64,000 nucleotides of DNA. Source: Candidatus Iainarchaeum sp. (GTDB lineage Archaea > Iainarchaeota > Iainarchaeia > Iainarchaeales > JAZDFD01). Both the position numbers and the translations under genes were made by a program. Below, piece by piece: positions 10,370 to 46,027 of the stretch. The stretch is from the NCBI GenBank assembly GCA_043808155.1, contig JAZDFD010000001.1, positions 1 through 64,000 of the forward strand, read 5' to 3'. Below the pieces are notes generated by a model. The model was not told the origin of the DNA and did no database searches. It saw nothing but the letters and a program-made list of their open reading frames with translations. Numbering within the stretch: the first letter of the stretch is position 1; every line of letters starts with the position of its first letter.

Positions 10370-10611
10370 GGGGTCATAGTGTAACCTGGTATCACCACAG
10401 GCTCCAGAATTTTTATTTTTGGAGGCGGAGGGCATGTATTGTGCCCAATGACGAATAACAGGTAGGATGAGTCTGCTTTTGCAGGCAGTGACAAAAAATG
10501 TGAGTGCTTAAAGCACGAACAAGTGTCAGTGAAACTGACACGAATTCGCACGCGGAATTTGCCGCGTAGTGGAGTTACCTGTTAATCTGGGTTCAAATCC
10601 CGGTGACCCCA
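10370..10611 (+). tRNA. tRNA-Trp(CCA) with 169-nt intron (10408-10576)
   Basis: GGGGTCA/TGACCCC acceptor, ACAGG/CCTGT anticodon stem, CCA anticodon, BHB at 37/38, GTTCAAATC T-loop. Confidence 0.93.
10415..10494 (+). ncRNA. Intron-encoded box C/D guide RNA
   Basis: ATGACGA at 10448; guide TAACAGGT complementary to 3' exon ACCTGTTA; D-like ATGA at 10467 places D+5 on C39. Confidence 0.7.
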
Positions 10612-10710
10612 CATTTCTTTTTTAGAATATTAATGAGGTATTGAGCGAAATCCGCCAATGGGACATAGAGTGTGCAAAGAACTTTAAGTTAATTGTAATA
10701 TGTGTTAGTT

Positions 10711-27455: not shown

Positions 27456-27580
27456 AAAATCGTATTATAATAGGTATTCAGAGCATTTAAAGCTTACTCA
27501 GGACATGACTAAAATCACGACAATTAACTGATTTCAGTTAAAGGGTTATGTTTATAAAGCTCTGAAGCCGGAATATATAC

Positions 27581-27940
27581 ATGCTGATAGAAGCGCTTAC
27601 ACATTTAGTTGCATTGGACCTAGACTGGTTTATCTCATTAGTAATGGGAAATTTGCACTTTGTTTTTGCATTATTTGCAGTAATCTACATGTTCTTTGAA
27701 GGTAAGAATTTAATTAAAGGTTTTTTTTTGATTGTTTTCATTCTTTGGACTCTTTCTGAATTTGAAAAAGTTACAAATATTGCAGTTTTTGTAGGTGGAT
27801 TTCTTACAATTTATTATTTGACAAAAATTGCATTATTAGCAATAACCGAAGACAGCACTTTCTTGAATAAATATTTTGTTCCAATTAGTACAATACAGGC
27901 ATATGTTGTGTTATTATTTTACAATTGGTTTTTGATGTGA
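27581..27940 (+). CDS. Small multi-pass membrane protein
   Basis: Hydrophobic 119-aa ORF. Confidence 0.65.
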   Translation: MLIEALTHLVALDLDWFISLVMGNLHFVFALFAVIYMFFEGKNLIKGFFLIVFILWTLSEFEKVTNIAVFVGGFLTIYYLTKIALLAITEDSTFLNKYFVPISTIQAYVVLLFYNWFLM

Positions 27941-27944
27941 TAAA

Positions 27945-28130
27945 ATGAGTTTCCTTTCAAGATTAACAAAAATTTGTGCGTTCGTACTTTTCGCTTACAC
28001 ATTTCTTTGGTTTTATGAATTAGTTACAGGAGATGTGCTTGTGTCTACTTTGATTTACACACCAATGGGTTTCTTTGTAATATTTGCTCTGGTCACGGGT
28101 GAAGCTTATTTCAATAATATTGGACTCTAA
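27945..28130 (+). CDS. Small two-TM protein
   Basis: Hydrophobic 61-aa ORF 4 bp after the previous gene. Confidence 0.55.
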   Translation: MSFLSRLTKICAFVLFAYTFLWFYELVTGDVLVSTLIYTPMGFFVIFALVTGEAYFNNIGL

Positions 28131-28154
28131 GAATAAGCTAATTTTCAAAAAAAA

Positions 28155-28340
28155 TATTACTGTCTTATCGGAGATAGGACACATATGCTCACGCAAGGGA
28201 CTCCGTCCCTTTGCAAACCCTGAAACTTTTTAATAGAATATTACTGCGGGGTTGAAAACCCCGCATATATGTTCACAATCGGAACGCCGATTAGCCCCGA
28301 GGAGTTCCACACATAGGGGCAACTACGTTTCCCCCTATTA
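28155..28340 (+). repeat. Cluster of palindromes: two module A copies, a C-type hairpin and a displaced tRNA-Gln 3' end
   Basis: TATTAC...CACATA at 28155-28185; TATTAC...CATATA at 28239-28269; TAGCCCCGAGGAG at 28292-28304 equals 28371-28383. Confidence 0.8.
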
Positions 28341-28370
28341 CCCCCTTCCTTTAATTATTAATAAAAAAGA

Positions 28371-28443
28371 TAGCCCCGAGGAGATTCGAACTCCTGTCAC
28401 CGGGTCCAAAGCCCAGCATCCTTGGCCACTAGACTACGGGGCT
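28371..28443 (-). tRNA. tRNA-Gln(TTG)
   Basis: AGCCCCG...CTGGG-CT-TTG-GA-CCCGG...GTTCGAATCTCCTCGGGGCTA. Confidence 0.95.
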
Positions 28444-28469
28444 AGTTTAAAGGAACTTAATAATTAGCT

Positions 28470-29681
28470 TTAGATTACGTATTTAAAGCTTTCTGGACTG
28501 AAAATATTGAACTTAGTTTTGTATTTTTTGATTTTGTTTAAGTTATGTTTTTGAGGGAGGGTAGCGCAGTTGGTAGCGCACGCGACTGATAATCGCGCGG
28601 TCATGGGTTCGAATCCCATTCTTCCCACTATTTTACGTAGAAGTTCATTTTTCTCCACACCGCAGTATTTTTTGCTCTTTTTTGAAATTTTCACACCATC
28701 AACAAAACCACCTAATTTCCAAAAATTTCTTATTGACTTTGAATCATAAATTCTAACACCACAAGCACCTGACCACGAACTTTTGCGCTTTCCAATTTTT
28801 CCATTGAGTCCATATTTCTTAAAAATAGTCTGCCATTGTTTGCACAAATTTGCATTATAGCATCCTAAATTCAATTCTGACTTCTTAGTTTTTGGATAGC
28901 TAATGCAACCATCAGTTGTAAAAGCAAAGCGAATGCACCAACTAAGTGTCTTCTCATCACATTTGTTTAGAAAATCTAGAGTTGGTTGTGGTTCATTTAA
29001 ATATTCGTTAACAGTTTGTCGATGTGCAGGAGATGTTTTGTAATTTGGGCTTAGTTTAAACAATTTCCGAGATAGAGTTGCATCTGTAAGTTTCAGATTA
29101 AACACTCCTTTTTTAGATTTATTAATTGCAGGCACATATCTACTAAGTCTAAGTAAAAGGCTGTTCATAAAATCCCTCAATATCGGATCTTTTGTAGAAT
29201 AAGCTATTCTATTTCTATCCCCACATGCTGAAAGAGAACCATCTGTCATCAGACAAGTTGCAAGAATGCACATTAGATTAACACAATCTTTTTCAAGCAA
29301 AGTTAGTAACTTATTATCAATTTTAATATTAAAGTCACTTTGAAGATTCTTTCTGCTTATGTGCGTTCTTATATATTTAGTATATTCATAAATATTTTCT
29401 ATTTGAGCTATTCTTGCTGAACCGCCTTTTCTTGCACTCCAATTCATAGGTAATTTCTTCCCAATATAGTTCTCAAATTCTTTCAATTCGGGTTGTAAAA
29501 TACATATTTTCTGAAAAACTGAAAAAGTCATGTTGCATTTTTCTTTTAACCAGTCTTTTAATGTCCATCTGCCGAGTTCTAACAATTCCGAGAGTTCTCT
29601 TTGTGGAAGATTTTGTTTCTTGTAAAAAGCCAATAAAAATTCTCGCTGTTTTCCTTTTTTAAATTTCAGCCTAAAGTTCAT
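28470..29681 (-). CDS. Free-standing LAGLIDADG-type endonuclease with N-terminal HTH
   Basis: LATCLMTDGSL and IRFAFTTDGCI double motif; N-terminal HTH; C-terminus is the antisense translation of tRNA-Ile. Confidence 0.75.
   Translation of the reverse strand: MNFRLKFKKGKQREFLLAFYKKQNLPQRELSELLELGRWTLKDWLKEKCNMTFSVFQKICILQPELKEFENYIGKKLPMNWSARKGGSARIAQIENIYEYTKYIRTHISRKNLQSDFNIKIDNKLLTLLEKDCVNLMCILATCLMTDGSLSACGDRNRIAYSTKDPILRDFMNSLLLRLSRYVPAINKSKKGVFNLKLTDATLSRKLFKLSPNYKTSPAHRQTVNEYLNEPQPTLDFLNKCDEKTLSWCIRFAFTTDGCISYPKTKKSELNLGCYNANLCKQWQTIFKKYGLNGKIGKRKSSWSGACGVRIYDSKSIRNFWKLGGFVDGVKISKKSKKYCGVEKNELLRKIVGRMGFEPMTARLSVACATNCATLPQKHNLNKIKKYKTKFNIFSPESFKYVI
28555..28627 (+). tRNA. tRNA-Ile(GAT)
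   Basis: GGGAGGG...CGCGA-CT-GAT-AA-TCGCG...GTTCGAATCCCATTCTTCCCA. Confidence 0.95.
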
Positions 29682-29792
29682 ATATTCAAAAGAAAAAGTT
29701 CATTTAAAAACAAACTTGGAGGTACATTTCCGATGAAATCCCTCCTTTCCCATTTCTTTTTCTTTTAAAATATATCTGAACGTAATAGTGAT

Positions 29793-30515
29793 ATGGTTGT
29801 TCCTAAAAAAATAAAAACACAACGAAGAAGCTTACTTCCTCAATTAGGAAATATGAGAATTTCTAAATCTGAAGCGGGAAGAAGACCTGAAAAAGCACAA
29901 TTGGATGCACGTAGGAAAGAAGAGTATTTAGAACATGATAGATACGGGGTTGAAGATGAAAGAACAAAAAAAGGTTGGCCTGCATTTCGTTCTGAATTAT
30001 GGAAAGTTGAAAAAAATTTACAAACAAATATCGTAGAGTATGTTCAAGAAAGAATTTCTAAATTTAGTGAAAAAACCCCTTTCAAAGTTATGGATTTGGG
30101 TTGTGGGGCAGGCGTAGCATTAAAAGAATTGAAAGGGCGACATCGAAAAAAAATAAAAACAACAGGTGTTGTTTTAAGAAAAACATCCGGGGAAACCTAT
30201 GGTGGTGTTGACCGTTTAATTGAAGGGGATATTAACCAAATAAATCCACGTGAAAAATACGATTTAATATTTTCAAATGCAGGCGCTACATTTTATACAC
30301 GACTTAAAACCACTGCATTTGAACGTGTGATTAGTTGGTTAAAACCAGACGGACGAGCAATACTTGAAATGGGCCACATGTCTGAAGATACACTAAATGA
30401 ATTGAAAACACTTCTTATGCAGAATGGAATCAAAAATTATGAACTTCGAAAAGACACTGCAGTAGGTGGAATTATTCTTGATTTTATTAAACCAGTACCC
30501 AAACTCCCAAAATAA
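29793..30515 (+). CDS. Class I SAM methyltransferase with basic N-terminal extension
   Basis: MDLGCGAG, YDLIFS and WLKPDG motifs. Confidence 0.85.
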   Translation: MVVPKKIKTQRRSLLPQLGNMRISKSEAGRRPEKAQLDARRKEEYLEHDRYGVEDERTKKGWPAFRSELWKVEKNLQTNIVEYVQERISKFSEKTPFKVMDLGCGAGVALKELKGRHRKKIKTTGVVLRKTSGETYGGVDRLIEGDINQINPREKYDLIFSNAGATFYTRLKTTAFERVISWLKPDGRAILEMGHMSEDTLNELKTLLMQNGIKNYELRKDTAVGGIILDFIKPVPKLPK

Positions 30516-30561: not shown

Positions 30562-31479
30562 ATGGAAACTCTGGTTATTGCTCTTGGCGGAAATGCACTC
30601 ATTAAACATCACCAAATTGGAAATTATAAACAGCAACTTGAGAATGTTAAGGAAACTTCAAAACAGATTGCAAAGCTGATTAAGAAAGGTTATTGCGTTA
30701 TTTTGACTCATGGAAATGGCCCCCAGGTTGGGAACCTGCAGATTCAGATGATAGCTGCGTCTGAAAAAGTTCCTGCAATGCCACTTGATGTGGATGTTGC
30801 AATGACGCAGGCGCAGATTGGTTACATGCTTCAGCAGAGTTTAAGGAATGAAATTCCTGCTGAGAAAGTTGCAACAATTGTTACTGAAATTGTTGTTGAT
30901 AAAAATGATTCTGCTTTCAGAAAACCAACAAAACCAATTGGACCTTATTACAAAAGCAAAAGCGAACTGAAAAAAGCAAAAATAAAAAATTTCATTTATG
31001 TGAAAGGGAAAGGCTACAGAAAAATTGTTGCATCTCCAAAACCAAAAAAAATAATTCAGTTAGAGAGTGTGAAGAAACTCTCTGAAAAGAAACGGGTTGT
31101 GATTTGCTGCGGCGGGGGGGGGATTCCTGTTGTGAAAAAAGGAAATGATTTTTTTGGCGTTGAGGCAGTAATTGATAAGGACAGAACTGCTTCATTGCTT
31201 GCAAAGGAACTGAAAGCGAAAACACTTGTGATTTTAACTGATGTTGAATTTGTTTATCTGAATTTTGGAAAAAAGAATCAGAAAAAATTAAGGAATGTGA
31301 AATTAAAAGAAATGAAAAACTATCTGAAGGAAGGGCATTTTTCAGAAGGTTCAATGAAACCAAAAATAGAATCTGCAATTGAATTTATTGAAAACAGCGG
31401 GAAGGAAGTAATAATAACTTCTTTGAACAAACTGCTTTCAGCAAGGAATGGTAAAACAGGTACGCGCGTGATAAAATGA
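30562..31479 (+). CDS. arcC: Carbamate kinase
   Basis: ALGGNAL, THGNGPQVG, PTKPIG and EAVIDKD motifs. Confidence 0.97.
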   Translation: METLVIALGGNALIKHHQIGNYKQQLENVKETSKQIAKLIKKGYCVILTHGNGPQVGNLQIQMIAASEKVPAMPLDVDVAMTQAQIGYMLQQSLRNEIPAEKVATIVTEIVVDKNDSAFRKPTKPIGPYYKSKSELKKAKIKNFIYVKGKGYRKIVASPKPKKIIQLESVKKLSEKKRVVICCGGGGIPVVKKGNDFFGVEAVIDKDRTASLLAKELKAKTLVILTDVEFVYLNFGKKNQKKLRNVKLKEMKNYLKEGHFSEGSMKPKIESAIEFIENSGKEVIITSLNKLLSARNGKTGTRVIK

Positions 31480-32417
31480 ACACATTAAAAGGACGGGATT
31501 TTTTAACACTGCAGGATTTTTCTAAAAAGGAAATTGCGAAAATGTTAGACAGAGCAGAAAATCTAAAATCAAGATATGCACGCGGCGGAGGCGCTAAAAA
31601 ACTCCTGAAGGGAAAAACACTTGCAATGCTTTTTATGAAACCCTCAACTCGAACACGGGTTTCATTTGAAACAGGAATGTATCAGCTGGGAGGGCATGCA
31701 ATTTTTTTGAATAAAGACCATACGCAAATTGGAAGGGGCGAGAGTGTTAAGGACACGGCGCTGGTGCTTTCACGATATGTTGATGGCGTAATGGCAAGAG
31801 TTTATGAGCACGAGTATTTGAAAGAGTTTGCAAAATGGTCTAGCGTCCCTGTGATTAATGGGCTTAGCAATTTTTTACACCCCTGTCAGGCTTTAAGTGA
31901 TCTTTTTACAATACAGGAAACTGTTGGAAAATTAAAGGGAGTTAATGTTTCCTATGTCGGAGAAGCAAATAATGTGTCAAATTCATTAATGATTGGCTGT
32001 TCAAAAATGAGTGTTGATTTTACAATTTATTCTCCAAAGCAATTTCCTGTGAATGAAACAATTTTGAAATATGCAAGAAAAAATGCGGAAGAATCTGGCG
32101 CTGAAATTTTAGTAAAAACAAAAATAGATGCAACGCTTGAAAACTCAAAATTCATTTATACTGATACATGGGAATCAATGCACCAAAGATTTGATAAAAA
32201 AGAACTTGAAAGAATAATGGCACCATTCCAAGTTAATGAATGCATGATGAAGACTCTGAAAAAAAGAAGAAAAATGTTTTATTTCATGCACGATCTCCCT
32301 GCACACAGAGGACATGAAATTACTTCAGAAGTAATGGATTCAAAATATTCAATAATTTTCAGACAGGCCGAAAACAGACTGCATGCACAGAAAGCATTAA
32401 TGAGTTTAATTCTTTAA
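31476..32417 (+). CDS. argF: Ornithine carbamoyltransferase
   Basis: STRTR, HPCQ, HDLP and QAENRLH motifs. Confidence 0.93.
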   Translation: MNTLKGRDFLTLQDFSKKEIAKMLDRAENLKSRYARGGGAKKLLKGKTLAMLFMKPSTRTRVSFETGMYQLGGHAIFLNKDHTQIGRGESVKDTALVLSRYVDGVMARVYEHEYLKEFAKWSSVPVINGLSNFLHPCQALSDLFTIQETVGKLKGVNVSYVGEANNVSNSLMIGCSKMSVDFTIYSPKQFPVNETILKYARKNAEESGAEILVKTKIDATLENSKFIYTDTWESMHQRFDKKELERIMAPFQVNECMMKTLKKRRKMFYFMHDLPAHRGHEITSEVMDSKYSIIFRQAENRLHAQKALMSLIL

Positions 32418-45859: not shown

Positions 45860-45860
45860 T

Positions 45861-46001
45861 GGGCCTGTGGCGCAACGGATAGCGCAGCTGCCTCCTAACG
45901 GACAGATCCGTTAACGATCTGTATGTGCGGGGTTTTCAACCCCGCGATAATAATACGTGGGAGCGAGCAGAAGGTTGAGAGTTCGATTCTCTCCGGGCCC
46001 G
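45861..46001 (+). tRNA. tRNA-Arg(CCT) with 68-nt intron (45898-45965)
   Basis: GGGCCTG/CGGGCCC acceptor; CT-CCT-A then intron; GGAG-CG^A BHB half; GTTCGATTC T-loop. Confidence 0.9.
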
Positions 46002-46027
46002 ATATTCATTTTTTGTAATTTTAGAAA

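What the first reader, a model, noticed from the sequence alone, without database searches (positions are those of the whole stretch)
28470..29765. Free-standing HTH-LAGLIDADG gene inserted at tRNA-Ile and reading antisense through the entire tRNA
Seen: the 403-aa ORF has two LAGLIDADG-like motifs and no intein ends. It crosses the tRNA (GRMGFEPMTARLSVACATNCATLP) and stops 26 bp before tRNA-Gln. Just upstream of the ORF, AAATCCCTCCTTTCCCA (29736-29752; 12/17 with the tRNA end) could still pair with the GGGAGGG acceptor strand and is followed by a T-rich terminator-like run. Inference: an intron-less homing element that cuts naive tRNA-Ile alleles and supplies a sequence-altered, immune 3' end. 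Its mRNA would also be antisense to tRNA-Ile.
Basis: partly seen in the sequence, partly recalled or inferred. Interest (0 to 1): 0.8.

Follow-up and report, generated by a model that had tools for sequence, protein, structure and literature searches.

The report
Homing endonuclease gene anchored on tRNA-Ile
A stand-alone DNA-cutting "selfish" gene sits flush against the end of the cell's only tRNA-Ile(GAU) gene, and its relatives in many small archaea hold the same spot, which points to an undescribed family of mobile genes that lives on one essential tRNA gene.

Summary
ORF 28470-29681(-), 403 aa, is a free-standing N-terminal HTH plus two-motif LAGLIDADG protein. Pfam, an AlphaFold model and Foldseek agree. 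It runs antisense through the whole tRNA-Ile(GAU) gene (28555-27) and stops 25 nt before tRNA-Gln.

The 52-residue tail is unstructured and not conserved, so it is read-through. The conserved protein ends 9 nt from the tRNA 3' end.

Every close relative whose end could be examined abuts a tRNA-Ile(GAU) gene with its C-terminus. Twenty-two distinct loci are convergent on the 3' end, like the window. Eight are co-directional on the 5' end.

Related genomes show empty sites, one 45-nt deletion scar, one broken copy, and two deeply different nuclease lineages alternating at the same site within two genera. dN/dS is about 0.15-0.3.

I read it as a new DPANN-archaeal family of tRNA-Ile-anchored free-standing homing endonuclease genes. 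The nearest functional analogue is phage T4 SegB. Cleavage, target and homing are inferred, not shown.

Clear tRNA-end duplications do flank the sister 5'-class cassettes.

The parts
28555..28627 (+). tRNA-Ile(GAU). It is intact, has no intron, and is the only tRNA-Ile(GAU) gene found in the 88%-complete genome.
   Evidence: ARAGORN; Rfam RF00005 70.7 bits, model positions 1-71; whole-genome ARAGORN finds 45 tRNAs with one Ile-GAT.
28470..29681 (-). Whole ORF, 403 aa plus stop: an HTH-LAGLIDADG homing-endonuclease-like gene, single copy in the genome.
   Evidence: AlphaFold mean pLDDT 85.6. The listed Foldseek PDB hits are LAGLIDADG enzymes, LAGLIDADG-bearing inteins, a maturase or WhiA.
28638..29681 (-). 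Conserved protein body, aa 1-348. It ends with the family motif EKNxLL, 9 nt from the tRNA 3' end.
   Evidence: Alignment A1 of 25 sequences; the distance from KNxLL to the tRNA end is 9-45 nt in 12 of 12 loci.
28470..28628 (-). Read-through tail, aa 352-403 plus stop: the antisense translation of the tRNA and of the 82 nt of spacer before it. It is not conserved and is predicted disordered.
   Evidence: pLDDT is below 50 for residues 360-403. Homologue tails differ in frame and length, and stops lie from -158 to +16 nt relative to the tRNA end.
29496..29651 (-). N-terminal Xre/HipB-type helix-turn-helix region, aa 11-62.
   Evidence: Pfam HTH_3 aa 20-59, E 0.0033; profile against PDB matches HipB at E 0.0066; model helices at 11-23, 27-33, 38-45 and 53-62; above cut-off in homologue L007.
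29235..29273 (-). LAGLIDADG motif 1, aa 137-149, ending in D147-G148.
   Evidence: D147 and G148 are invariant in 25 sequences. Model helix 136-147 is followed by strand 148-153.
28905..28943 (-). LAGLIDADG motif 2, aa 247-259, ending in D257-G258.
   Evidence: D257 is at least 90% conserved and G258 invariant. Model helix 243-257 is followed by strand 258-261. The best Pfam stretch covers aa 250-320.
29736..29752 (+). tRNA-Ile 3'-end-like 17-mer, corresponding to tRNA positions about 57-73. It may be a displaced native end, or a relic of the end of a lost small upstream ORF. Status is open.
   Evidence: 12/17 match; shuffle p 0.022 and 0.024; nhmmer model positions 9-25, E 9.2. A like element sits at the same relative place in L007 (E 1.6). 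Not significant over 17 loci. The block is homologous to small-ORF ends elsewhere.
29753..29768 (+). T-rich run after the 17-mer. It resembles the oligo-T trailers that follow tRNA-Ile at empty sites.
   Evidence: Sequence; trailers of empty sites L032, L033, L066 and L064.
29703..29735 (-). Upstream block: TTTAAA (29703-29708) and CATCGGAAA (29727-29735 on the + strand as TTTCCGATG). It is either promoter-like or a decayed N-terminal extension; in the window an in-frame TGA lies 7 codons upstream of the ATG.
   Evidence: Upstream regions of the other loci were compared. The open frame is 409 aa against an ORF of 403 aa.
28369..28444 (-). tRNA-Gln(UUG), the divergent partner of tRNA-Ile. This pairing is conserved synteny in relatives with and without the gene.
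   Evidence: Both tRNAs are present in 21 of 36 loci examined.
29793..30515 (+). Flanking methyltransferase-like gene, the first gene beyond the endonuclease gene. It is not part of the element.
   Evidence: NCBIfam gives weak class I methyltransferase hits, all below cut-off.

Best explanation
The ORF is a free-standing, single-chain (two-motif) LAGLIDADG homing endonuclease gene with an added N-terminal helix-turn-helix domain. It belongs to an undescribed family of DPANN archaea (Iainarchaeota-type and Woesearchaeota-type MAGs) that lives on the tRNA-Ile(GAU) gene.

Shown here:
- The fold and both catalytic-position aspartates.
- Purifying selection on the protein.
- The fixed position of the gene, with its C-terminal end flush against either the 3' end (convergent, as in the window) or the 5' end (co-directional) of tRNA-Ile(GAU).
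- Presence/absence polymorphism at exactly this site.

Inferred:
- The enzyme recognises DNA of the tRNA-Ile gene end. This is a sequence that cannot drift, as with the intron and intein targets of other homing endonucleases.
- It cuts alleles that lack the gene.
- Double-strand-break repair then copies the gene into them, just outside the mature tRNA. No splicing is needed and the essential tRNA stays intact.
- In the occupied allele the site is split by the insertion. In the 5' class the cassette carries a replacement copy of tRNA nt 1 to about 20, and most of those tRNAs also carry an insertion in the D arm.
- The 52-codon antisense passage through the tRNA is a by-product: the cassette ends at the tRNA with no stop codon of its own. 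It is not a functional domain.
For: Fold and active site:
- Pfam LAGLIDADG_3, 33.9 bits against a cut-off of 22.5.
- AlphaFold pLDDT 85.6.
- Foldseek top hits are bI3 maturase, PI-PfuI, WhiA, I-Tsp061I, I-AniI, I-SceI and I-DmoI (TMt up to 0.72), with 108 hits at E<=0.001.
- D147/G148 and G258 are invariant and D257 is at least 90% conserved in 25 sequences.

Anchoring on tRNA-Ile(GAU):
- 18 of 18 assessable loci of the phylum search are convergent on it: 12 of the window's type and 6 of two divergent nuclease types that share the N-terminal domain.
- 4 further distinct metagenome loci show the same arrangement (L069, L072, L078, L080).
- 8 loci have the tRNA-Ile 5' end within -14 to +12 nt of the conserved ORF end.
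- Of 45 family representatives scoring at least 300 bits, 26 have C-terminal tails with sense or antisense tRNA peptide signatures, against 43 of 2840 control windows.

Gain and loss:
- 33 of 215 genomes of the phylum have any match.
- Empty tRNA-Ile sites have the next gene starting, or a convergent gene ending, 7-150 nt after the tRNA.
- In genus g29 the insertion in G069 starts right after the discriminator base, when compared with empty G066 and G070.
- G067 keeps 45 nt of the gene's 3' end after its tRNA.
- The G062 copy is in two pieces.
- The window's type and type-B nucleases alternate at the same site within genera g29 and g34.

Selection: dN/dS is 0.15-0.29 in 6 of 8 pairs; the other 2 are saturated.

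Tail: pLDDT is below 50 for residues 360-403, and the frames differ between homologues.

5'-class cassettes are flanked by a second copy of tRNA nt 1 to about 20. L070 and L068 match 19/20 after removing the D-arm insertion. Shuffle p values are 0.002, 0.02, 0.002 and 0.028.

The tRNA is single-copy in the genome.

Precedent for the target: T4 SegB recognises a 27-bp site containing the 11-bp T-psi-C motif of tRNA genes (abstract of PMC2330249).
Against: - No cleavage, target site or homing event was observed; all of these are inferred.
- The protein tree largely follows host families (f12, f14 and f15 each cluster). This fits long vertical descent with losses as well as it fits homing among close relatives.
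- No HEG-less allele was seen in the four public runs that hold fragments of this organism. These are contigs at low depth, so the result is weak.
- No relative was found on viral contigs.
- The occupied allele still contains a complete tRNA. If the target lies wholly inside the tRNA, immunity is unexplained for the intron-less 3' class.
- Some relatives are not next to a tRNA: L017, L018, L019 and L027, and the distant L057-L061.
- Only 6 of 91 representatives scoring 100-200 bits show tRNA-type tails.
Confidence: 0.6

Rival explanations
1. It is a domesticated or host-retained protein. Under this reading a LAGLIDADG-derived DNA-binding protein (regulator, or a nuclease that guards the tRNA-Ile locus against elements that integrate there) is inherited vertically and lost repeatedly. 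It is no longer a mobile gene.
For: - The tree follows host families.
- Purifying selection persists over deep divergence. By the recalled Goddard-Burt cycle, purely selfish endonuclease genes are expected to decay after fixation.
- The position is constant.
- WhiA, a LAGLIDADG-derived regulator, is among the top fold hits.
- No HEG-less allele was seen in the runs laid.
Against: - Both catalytic-position Asp-Gly pairs are kept across the family, unlike what I recall for WhiA.
- The Pfam WhiA model scores below its cut-off (21.2 against 23.2).
- The distribution is patchy: 33 of 215 genomes, with mixed states inside genera.
- There is a deletion scar and a broken copy.
- Two unrelated nuclease domains alternate at one site within two genera.
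- The gene has moved from the 3' to the 5' side of the same tRNA, and there it carries duplicated tRNA ends.
Confidence: 0.22
2. It is the remnant or cargo of a larger element that integrated at the tRNA-Ile 3' end by site-specific (integrase-type, Campbell-like) recombination. The endonuclease gene would then be only a passenger.
For: - By established knowledge, tRNA 3' ends are the classical attachment sites of archaeal and bacterial integrative elements.
- The window has a 12/17 direct repeat of the tRNA end.
- In G069 the insertion relative to empty sites is 2.3 kb and also holds a 288-aa ORF and a small ORF.
Against: - In the window the whole insertion between the tRNA and the next gene is about 1.16 kb and holds only this ORF.
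- No integrase family was reported for the proteins scanned.
- The endonuclease gene, not any other gene, is the constant neighbour of the tRNA in 22 + 8 loci.
- Its C-terminus, not an att-type repeat, abuts the tRNA.
- The repeat is not significant over the class.
Confidence: 0.08
3. The gene lies inside a giant tRNA intron, or between halves of a split tRNA. On this reading the 17-mer (or, in the 5' class, the upstream 20-mer) is the true exon, spliced by the archaeal bulge-helix-bulge pathway, as for LAGLIDADG genes in archaeal rRNA introns.
For: - Archaeal LAGLIDADG genes known so far are intron- or intein-borne. This rests on recall and on the titles of the fold hits.
- The tRNA-end fragments lie on the tRNA's strand on the far side of the gene.
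- Many tRNAs of these genomes carry introns.
Against: - A complete, high-scoring tRNA-Ile stands next to the gene (70.7 bits).
- The window's 17-mer has T-stem strand CCCTC, which cannot pair with the tRNA's ATGGG.
- In the 3' class the gene is antisense to the tRNA.
- Rfam finds no intron family.
Confidence: 0.03

Closest known systems
Phage T4 SegB, a free-standing GIY-YIG homing endonuclease in the T4 tRNA gene cluster
   Same: It is a free-standing endonuclease gene lying among or next to tRNA genes. Its 27-bp site contains the conserved 11-bp T-psi-C stem-loop motif of tRNA genes. Homing carries the gene and adjacent tRNA genes into related genomes that lack it. This comes from the abstract of PMC2330249, read.
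   Different: SegB has a different fold (GIY-YIG, not LAGLIDADG plus HTH) and is on a phage rather than an archaeal chromosome. It is not tied to one tRNA species, and its ORF is not fused end-to-end with the tRNA. No duplicated tRNA ends are mentioned in the abstract. For our protein, cleavage and homing are not shown.
Archaeal intron- and intein-encoded two-motif LAGLIDADG endonucleases: I-DmoI, I-Tsp061I, PI-PfuI
   Same: They share the double alpha-beta-beta-alpha-beta-beta-alpha fold (TMt 0.60-0.72), have an acidic residue at the end of each motif, and target an essential, slowly evolving gene.
   Different: They sit inside rRNA introns or inteins and depend on RNA or protein splicing to be harmless. 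This gene is free-standing and sits outside the mature tRNA. It has an extra N-terminal HTH domain. Sequence similarity is too low for any PDB hit to the nuclease part by profile search.
WhiA, a LAGLIDADG-derived transcription factor of Gram-positive bacteria
   Same: It combines two LAGLIDADG-like domains with an HTH domain in one chain. It is a fold hit at rank 3, and the Pfam LAGLIDADG_WhiA model matches at E 3.2e-4.
   Different: That Pfam match is below its cut-off (21.2 against 23.2). From recall, WhiA's HTH is C-terminal, whereas here it is N-terminal. The catalytic-position Asp residues are kept here. The distribution is patchy and tRNA-anchored, not universal.
   Same: A free-standing endonuclease gene lies beside its target gene. 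In the occupied genome the target is interrupted by an intron that blocks cleavage. The parallel here is that 6 of 8 5'-class tRNA-Ile genes carry an insertion in the D arm, near where the duplicated tRNA fragment ends.
   Different: The cyanophage case involves a group I intron in a protein-coding gene of a phage. Here the insertions are putative archaeal tRNA introns whose splicing and protective effect are untested. The window's own tRNA has no intron.
tRNA-targeting integrative elements (tyrosine-integrase islands and viruses)
   Same: They insert at the end of a tRNA gene, the tRNA is kept intact, and (in the 5' class) the tRNA end is partly duplicated on the far side of the insert.
   Different: No integrase is present. 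The insert is a single endonuclease gene. The duplication in the window is doubtful, and in genus g29 at most CCA is duplicated.

Membership tests
LAGLIDADG homing endonucleases (single-chain, two-motif) | Two LAGLIDADG domains with the alpha-beta-beta-alpha-beta-beta-alpha fold | tested here: met
   PF14528 scores 33.9 bits against a cut-off of 22.5, in 2 stretches. The AlphaFold model has pLDDT 85.6, with helix 136-147 then strands, and helix 243-257 then strands. Foldseek gives 108 PDB hits at E<=0.001, led by LAGLIDADG enzymes.
LAGLIDADG homing endonucleases (single-chain, two-motif) | An acidic residue at the C-terminal end of each LAGLIDADG helix, serving as a metal ligand | tested here: met
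   D147-G148 are invariant; D257 is at least 90% conserved and G258 invariant, across 25 sequences down to 29% identity.
LAGLIDADG homing endonucleases (single-chain, two-motif) | Site-specific cleavage of a long (about 20 bp) target leaving 4-nt 3' overhangs | not testable with these tools
   This needs purified protein and substrates.
LAGLIDADG homing endonucleases (single-chain, two-motif) | Mobility: occupied and empty alleles of the same site, with degeneration and loss | tested here: met
   Found: empty sites, an insertion exactly at the tRNA end, a 45-nt scar, a broken copy, and two lineages at one site. All of this is between species. No within-population polymorphism was seen.
Intron- or intein-borne homing endonucleases | Residence in a self-splicing or BHB intron, or in an intein with Hint splice domains | tested here: not met
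   Pfam reports no intein family. Rfam reports no intron family at E<=1 in 27500-30500. The ORF starts with its own ATG and lies outside the mature tRNA.
Free-standing ('intron-less') homing endonuclease genes of the T4 Seg/Mob kind | An intergenic gene beside a conserved target gene, with cleavage of genomes lacking it and co-conversion of flanks | tested here: inconclusive
   The position beside a conserved gene is met in 30 loci. Cleavage and co-conversion were not testable. tRNA-Ile is somewhat more divergent than the neighbouring tRNA-Gln (77.5% against 83.4% mean identity over 210 non-independent pairs), which is only a hint.
WhiA-type regulators | Degenerate LAGLIDADG domains without catalytic residues plus a C-terminal HTH, and universal presence in a lineage | tested here: not met
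   PF14527 scores 21.2 against a cut-off of 23.2. The catalytic-position Asp residues are kept. The HTH is N-terminal. Only 33 of 215 genomes have a match. WhiA's own features are recalled, not tested.
Integrase-type tRNA-integrating elements | A tyrosine or serine recombinase gene and an att direct repeat of the tRNA end | tested here: not met
   The only ORF of at least 50 aa lying wholly between tRNA-Ile and the next gene is the endonuclease gene. The repeat is 12/17 in the window, and is not significant over 17 loci.

The most novel reading that the evidence does not exclude
A whole family of archaeal homing endonucleases is specialised on one essential tRNA gene and is locked in an arms race with it.

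The cassettes insert at or inside the tRNA-Ile(GAU) gene. Where they insert inside it (5' class), they bring a replacement copy of the displaced tRNA end. The non-canonical D-arm insertions, and perhaps the odd C55 T-loops, of the linked tRNA-Ile genes are then immunity devices that split or alter the endonuclease's target.

This would give the first concrete selective agent for non-canonical archaeal tRNA introns. It would also explain the unusually variable acceptor stems of tRNA-Ile in these lineages.

A further step is possible. The A/T-rich codons of the conserved C-terminal EKNxLL motif may double as the tRNA's oligo-T terminator in the 3' class (read antisense) or as its TATA box in the 5' class. 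The cassette would then replace the expression signals that it displaces.
Probability: 0.25. Interest if true: 0.85.

Novelty: new variant of a known kind. Interest (0 to 1): 0.68.

Why it matters
Homing endonucleases persist by targeting sequences that hosts cannot change. They avoid harm by hiding in introns or inteins. This family would show a third solution in cellular chromosomes. It parks the gene flush against, or nested with a spare end in, an essential single-copy tRNA gene, and needs no splicing.

The family offers a set of natural HTH-LAGLIDADG enzymes whose likely target is conserved across many archaea: 113 clusters at E<=1e-30 and 353 at E<=1e-10. That is useful for studying how specificity evolves, and as nuclease scaffolds.

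It also makes a long-standing question directly testable: why archaeal tRNA genes carry introns at odd positions. The hypothesis that such introns protect against mobile elements is recalled from Randau and Soll; I did not read it here. The testable point is that the linked tRNA-Ile genes of the 5' class are intron-laden exactly where the cassette's duplicated end stops.

It is also a caution for annotation. The last 50 or so residues of such proteins are translated antisense tRNA (GFEP, IRT and similar) or sense tRNA (GPVA, ARS and similar).

Tried and rejected
- Population polymorphism. I laid four public runs on 27900-30400. They yielded only short low-depth contigs and no joint that skips the gene. 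One 800-nt contig of a roughly 87%-identical variant (X3) keeps the arrangement from the gene's N-terminus to the methyltransferase gene. Nothing can be said about HEG-less alleles or habitat.
- Viral vectors. The scan of viral contigs found no relative.
- tRNA 3' remnant across the 3' class.
  - The ungapped search gave p<0.05 in L001, L007 and L026 only.
  - The nhmmer profile of the last 25 nt found only L001 (E 9.2), L007 (E 1.6) and L078 (E 6.5) reaching the model's end.
  - The gapped test over 17 loci gave Fisher p 0.17, against 0.94 for the opposite-strand control.
  - I therefore do not claim a remnant for the class.
- Remnants at relatives beside tRNA-Pro, tRNA-Gln(CUG), tRNA-Glu and tRNA-Gly: none found (p 0.30-0.82; ORF starts were imprecise).
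- 'Altered immune acceptor stem': rejected. G5-U68 is common to occupied and empty alleles.
- T-loop variants. I tallied these by eye. Non-canonical T loops occur in 11 of 22 occupied and 4 of 18 empty alleles. The rows are not independent and the empty sites were retrieved by BLAST, so this is a hint only.
- Intron enrichment. 13 of 45 tRNAs of G000 carry ARAGORN-called introns. About 6-7 of 35 and 7 of 25 Rfam tRNA hits in G215 and G216 are longer than 90 nt. Introns are therefore common there, and no enrichment at tRNA-Ile can be claimed. The only specific observation is that the two tRNA-Ile genes are the two lowest-scoring RF00005 hits above the cut-off.
- Promoter reading. My first reading of TTTAAA and CACCGGAAAC as promoter or operator is weakened. 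In many loci they are codons of an N-terminal extension.
- BHB structure of the D-arm insertions. Plain folding keeps the acceptor, anticodon and T arms, but I did not establish bulge-helix-bulge motifs.
- Peptide-tail signatures for distant representatives are uninformative: 6 of 91 at 100-200 bits.
- Literature. Searches gave no paper on LAGLIDADG genes flanking archaeal tRNA genes. I saw only the listings. Supplements are closed and might hold such annotations.
Full report
WHAT IS IN THE WINDOW

ORF 28470-29681 on the minus strand encodes 403 aa. tRNA-Ile(GAU) lies on the plus strand at 28555-28627 (ARAGORN; Rfam 70.7 bits over the full model). It sits inside the ORF's last 52 codons. The stop codon (28470-28472) lies 25 nt from tRNA-Gln(UUG) at 28369-28444. 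The gene is single-copy in its 1.08-Mb, 88%-complete genome. This tRNA is the only tRNA-Ile(GAU) among the 45 tRNAs found there, so it must be functional. Contigs from independent public runs, identical or nearly identical to the window, bridge the tRNA/ORF junction.

THE PROTEIN

Pfam finds LAGLIDADG_3 above its cut-off, in two stretches, and a weak N-terminal HTH. The HTH is above cut-off in a homologue. At profile level it resembles HipB/Xre repressors.

An AlphaFold model built on 25 homologues is confident (pLDDT 85.6). It shows an N-terminal helical domain and two helix-then-strands modules whose first helices end at D147 and D257. Residues 360-403 are disordered.

Foldseek against the PDB returns LAGLIDADG enzymes, LAGLIDADG-bearing inteins, a maturase and WhiA among its listed hits. 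D147-G148 and G258 are invariant and D257 nearly so, in sequences down to 29% identity. The active-site positions are therefore kept. Pfam reports no intein family and Rfam no intron family.

THE TAIL

In the alignment, conservation stops at EKNxLL plus a few residues. In the window, the last conserved Leu codon ends 9 nt from the tRNA's 3' end. The rest is the antisense translation of the tRNA. Homologues have tails of different length and frame (GFEP, IRT and NRT types). Their stops fall anywhere from 158 nt inside or beyond the tRNA to 16 nt before it. The crossing of the tRNA is therefore a by-product of a gene that ends flush with the tRNA and has no stop of its own.

THE FAMILY IS ANCHORED ON tRNA-Ile(GAU)

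A profile search of the 215 species genomes of the phylum found matches in 33. Record titles of the same contigs name them Candidatus Iainarchaeum / ainarchaeum or 'archaeon' MAGs, that is, DPANN archaea.

With intron-aware tRNA finding, all 18 assessable loci are convergent on the 3' end of tRNA-Ile(GAU). Twelve are of the window's type. Six are of two divergent LAGLIDADG types that share only the N-terminal domain. Two loci ended at contig edges and could not be assessed. One tRNA, miscalled Ser, is Ile(GAU) with a 16-nt intron by inspection.

Metagenome contigs add four distinct convergent loci. Eight further loci (two MAGs, six distinct metagenome contigs) have the gene on the other side. 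There it is co-directional, and the tRNA-Ile 5' end lies within -14 to +12 nt of the conserved ORF end. The ORF stops inside the tRNA, at TAG in the D arm or TGA in the anticodon loop. ARAGORN and Rfam miss or miscall five of these tRNAs. I identified them by a perfect or 6/7 acceptor stem, a T arm and a CTGATA anticodon loop.

Without any DNA, 26 of the 45 best family representatives have C-terminal peptides that look like translated tRNA, against 1.5% of control windows. The family is sizeable, with 353 clusters at E<=1e-10.

More distant relatives sit directly upstream of tRNA-Pro(GGG), tRNA-Gln(CUG), tRNA-Glu(CUC) and tRNA-Gly(CCC). Others have no tRNA nearby: L017-19 and L027, and L057-61.

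GAIN, LOSS AND TURNOVER

tRNA-Ile sites without the gene are common. At them, the next gene starts, or a convergent gene ends, 7-150 nt after the tRNA.

- In genus g29, G066 and G070 are empty. In G069 the extra DNA begins exactly after the discriminator base. The flank resumes after a retained CCA.
- G067 keeps 45 nt of the gene's 3' end behind its tRNA, which is a deletion scar.
- G062 has a copy in two pieces.
- In genera g29 and g34, the window's type and type B occupy the same site in different species. L003 and L023 share the N-terminal coding part and the upstream DNA (73% identity) but not the nuclease part.

The protein is under purifying selection (dN/dS 0.15-0.29, although dS is near saturation).

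Against frequent long-range transfer, the tree groups the proteins by host family. No viral relative was found. In that tree the 5' class is one clade (SH-aLRT 85), and the window's protein is its sister (SH-aLRT 90).

THE 'DISPLACED tRNA END'

Its likeness to a tRNA end is only nominal. L007 and L078 have like elements at the same place, but over 17 loci the effect is not significant.

The block that contains it is homologous to the end of small upstream ORFs and to the start of an N-terminal extension of the endonuclease in other loci. In the window that extension is closed by an in-frame TGA.

In genus g29 no replacement end is needed. The window's T arm is identical to that of HEG-less L033. 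Its acceptor 3' strand differs from L033's at one base.

A second copy of tRNA nt 1 to about 20 lies just upstream of the gene's promoter region. It matches the functional gene at 19/20 in L068 and L070 once that gene's D-arm insertion is removed. Six of the eight 5'-class tRNAs carry an insertion in the D arm or D loop, and seven of eight carry at least one insertion. Introns are common in these genomes anyway, so enrichment is not shown.

HOW IT MOST LIKELY WORKS

This part is inferred. The enzyme binds the end region of the tRNA-Ile gene. It cuts alleles without the gene, and repair copies the gene into them. The insertion lies outside the mature tRNA (3' class), or it brings its own copy of the displaced end (5' class). 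The essential tRNA survives in either case.

The closest worked example is T4 SegB, whose site includes the T-psi-C motif of tRNA genes (abstract of PMC2330249). How the intron-less occupied allele escapes cutting is open. The simplest idea is that the site spans the tRNA/trailer junction, which the insertion splits.

RIVALS

- Domestication (0.22) fits the tree and the long conservation. It fits poorly with the kept active site, the patchiness, the scar, the lineage turnover and the jump to the 5' side.
- Cargo of an integrase-type island (0.08).
- A giant intron (0.03).

The last two are discussed in their sections.

NOVELTY

Five full-text searches (listings only) found nothing on LAGLIDADG genes flanking archaeal tRNA genes. 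Free-standing homing endonucleases, LAGLIDADG enzymes and tRNA-directed homing (SegB) are all known. I therefore rate this a new variant of a known kind.

Noticed in passing
L003, L008, L010, L069 (upstream of the endonuclease gene); window 29703-29760 is the decayed counterpart: In several loci a small ORF precedes the endonuclease gene on the same strand. Two unrelated types occur: one with a GNPFGEG motif, the other ending ..LW(I/V)L.NF.GD... Its stop overlaps, as ATGA or GTGA, the start of a 25-35-aa N-terminal extension of the endonuclease (MN.GN.PL...(F/Y)K). This suggests a translationally coupled two-gene unit. The window has lost both.
   Followed up: partly
L003/L023/L012 (genomes G082, G080, G081) against L045 (G079): In the three occupied species of genus g34, tRNA-Ile has T loops TCCGATT or TCCGAAT, with C at the almost universal U55 position. 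The empty species of the same genus has the canonical TTCAAAT.
   Followed up: partly
L052, L053, L068, L070, L071, L076, L079: tRNA-Ile(GAU) genes next to 5'-class endonuclease genes are 101-179 nt long, with one to about four insertions in the D arm, anticodon stem or loop, and before the T arm. ARAGORN and Rfam miss or miscall five of the eight 5'-class tRNAs.
   Followed up: partly
L014-L016, L028-L031: More distant HTH-LAGLIDADG relatives end within 0-90 nt of, or overlap, the 5' end of tRNA-Pro(GGG), tRNA-Gln(CUG), tRNA-Glu(CUC) and tRNA-Gly(CCC). The habit of abutting a tRNA gene may be older than the tRNA-Ile specificity.
   Followed up: partly
window 10370-10612 and 45860-46002; G000 contig C20 3956-4108: Intron-aware ARAGORN calls tRNA-Trp(CCA) with a 169-nt intron and tRNA-Arg(CCT) with a 68-nt intron inside the window. 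It also calls a 'tRNA-Pyl(CTA)' with a 75-nt intron elsewhere in the genome. The plain ARAGORN run did not list the two window calls. All are unverified.
   Followed up: no
tRNA-Ile against tRNA-Gln in 21 loci: The acceptor stem of tRNA-Ile varies widely even within genera (GGGAGTG, GCGCCTG, GGGAGCG and GGATGAG in g29). The neighbouring tRNA-Gln keeps AGCCCC(G/A/T) in 20 of the 21 loci (L044 has AGCCCGA). Mean pairwise identity is 77.5% against 83.4%.
   Followed up: partly
window 30562-32417: A carbamate-kinase-like ORF and an ornithine-carbamoyltransferase-like ORF overlap by 4 nt just beyond the methyltransferase gene. I judged them by eye from the translations.
   Followed up: no
L010 (G069), 1428-2294 nt beyond the tRNA end: A 288-aa ORF of unknown family lies between the endonuclease unit and the conserved flank in G069. 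It is absent from the empty sites of G066 and G070. It was not scanned against any family library.
   Followed up: no
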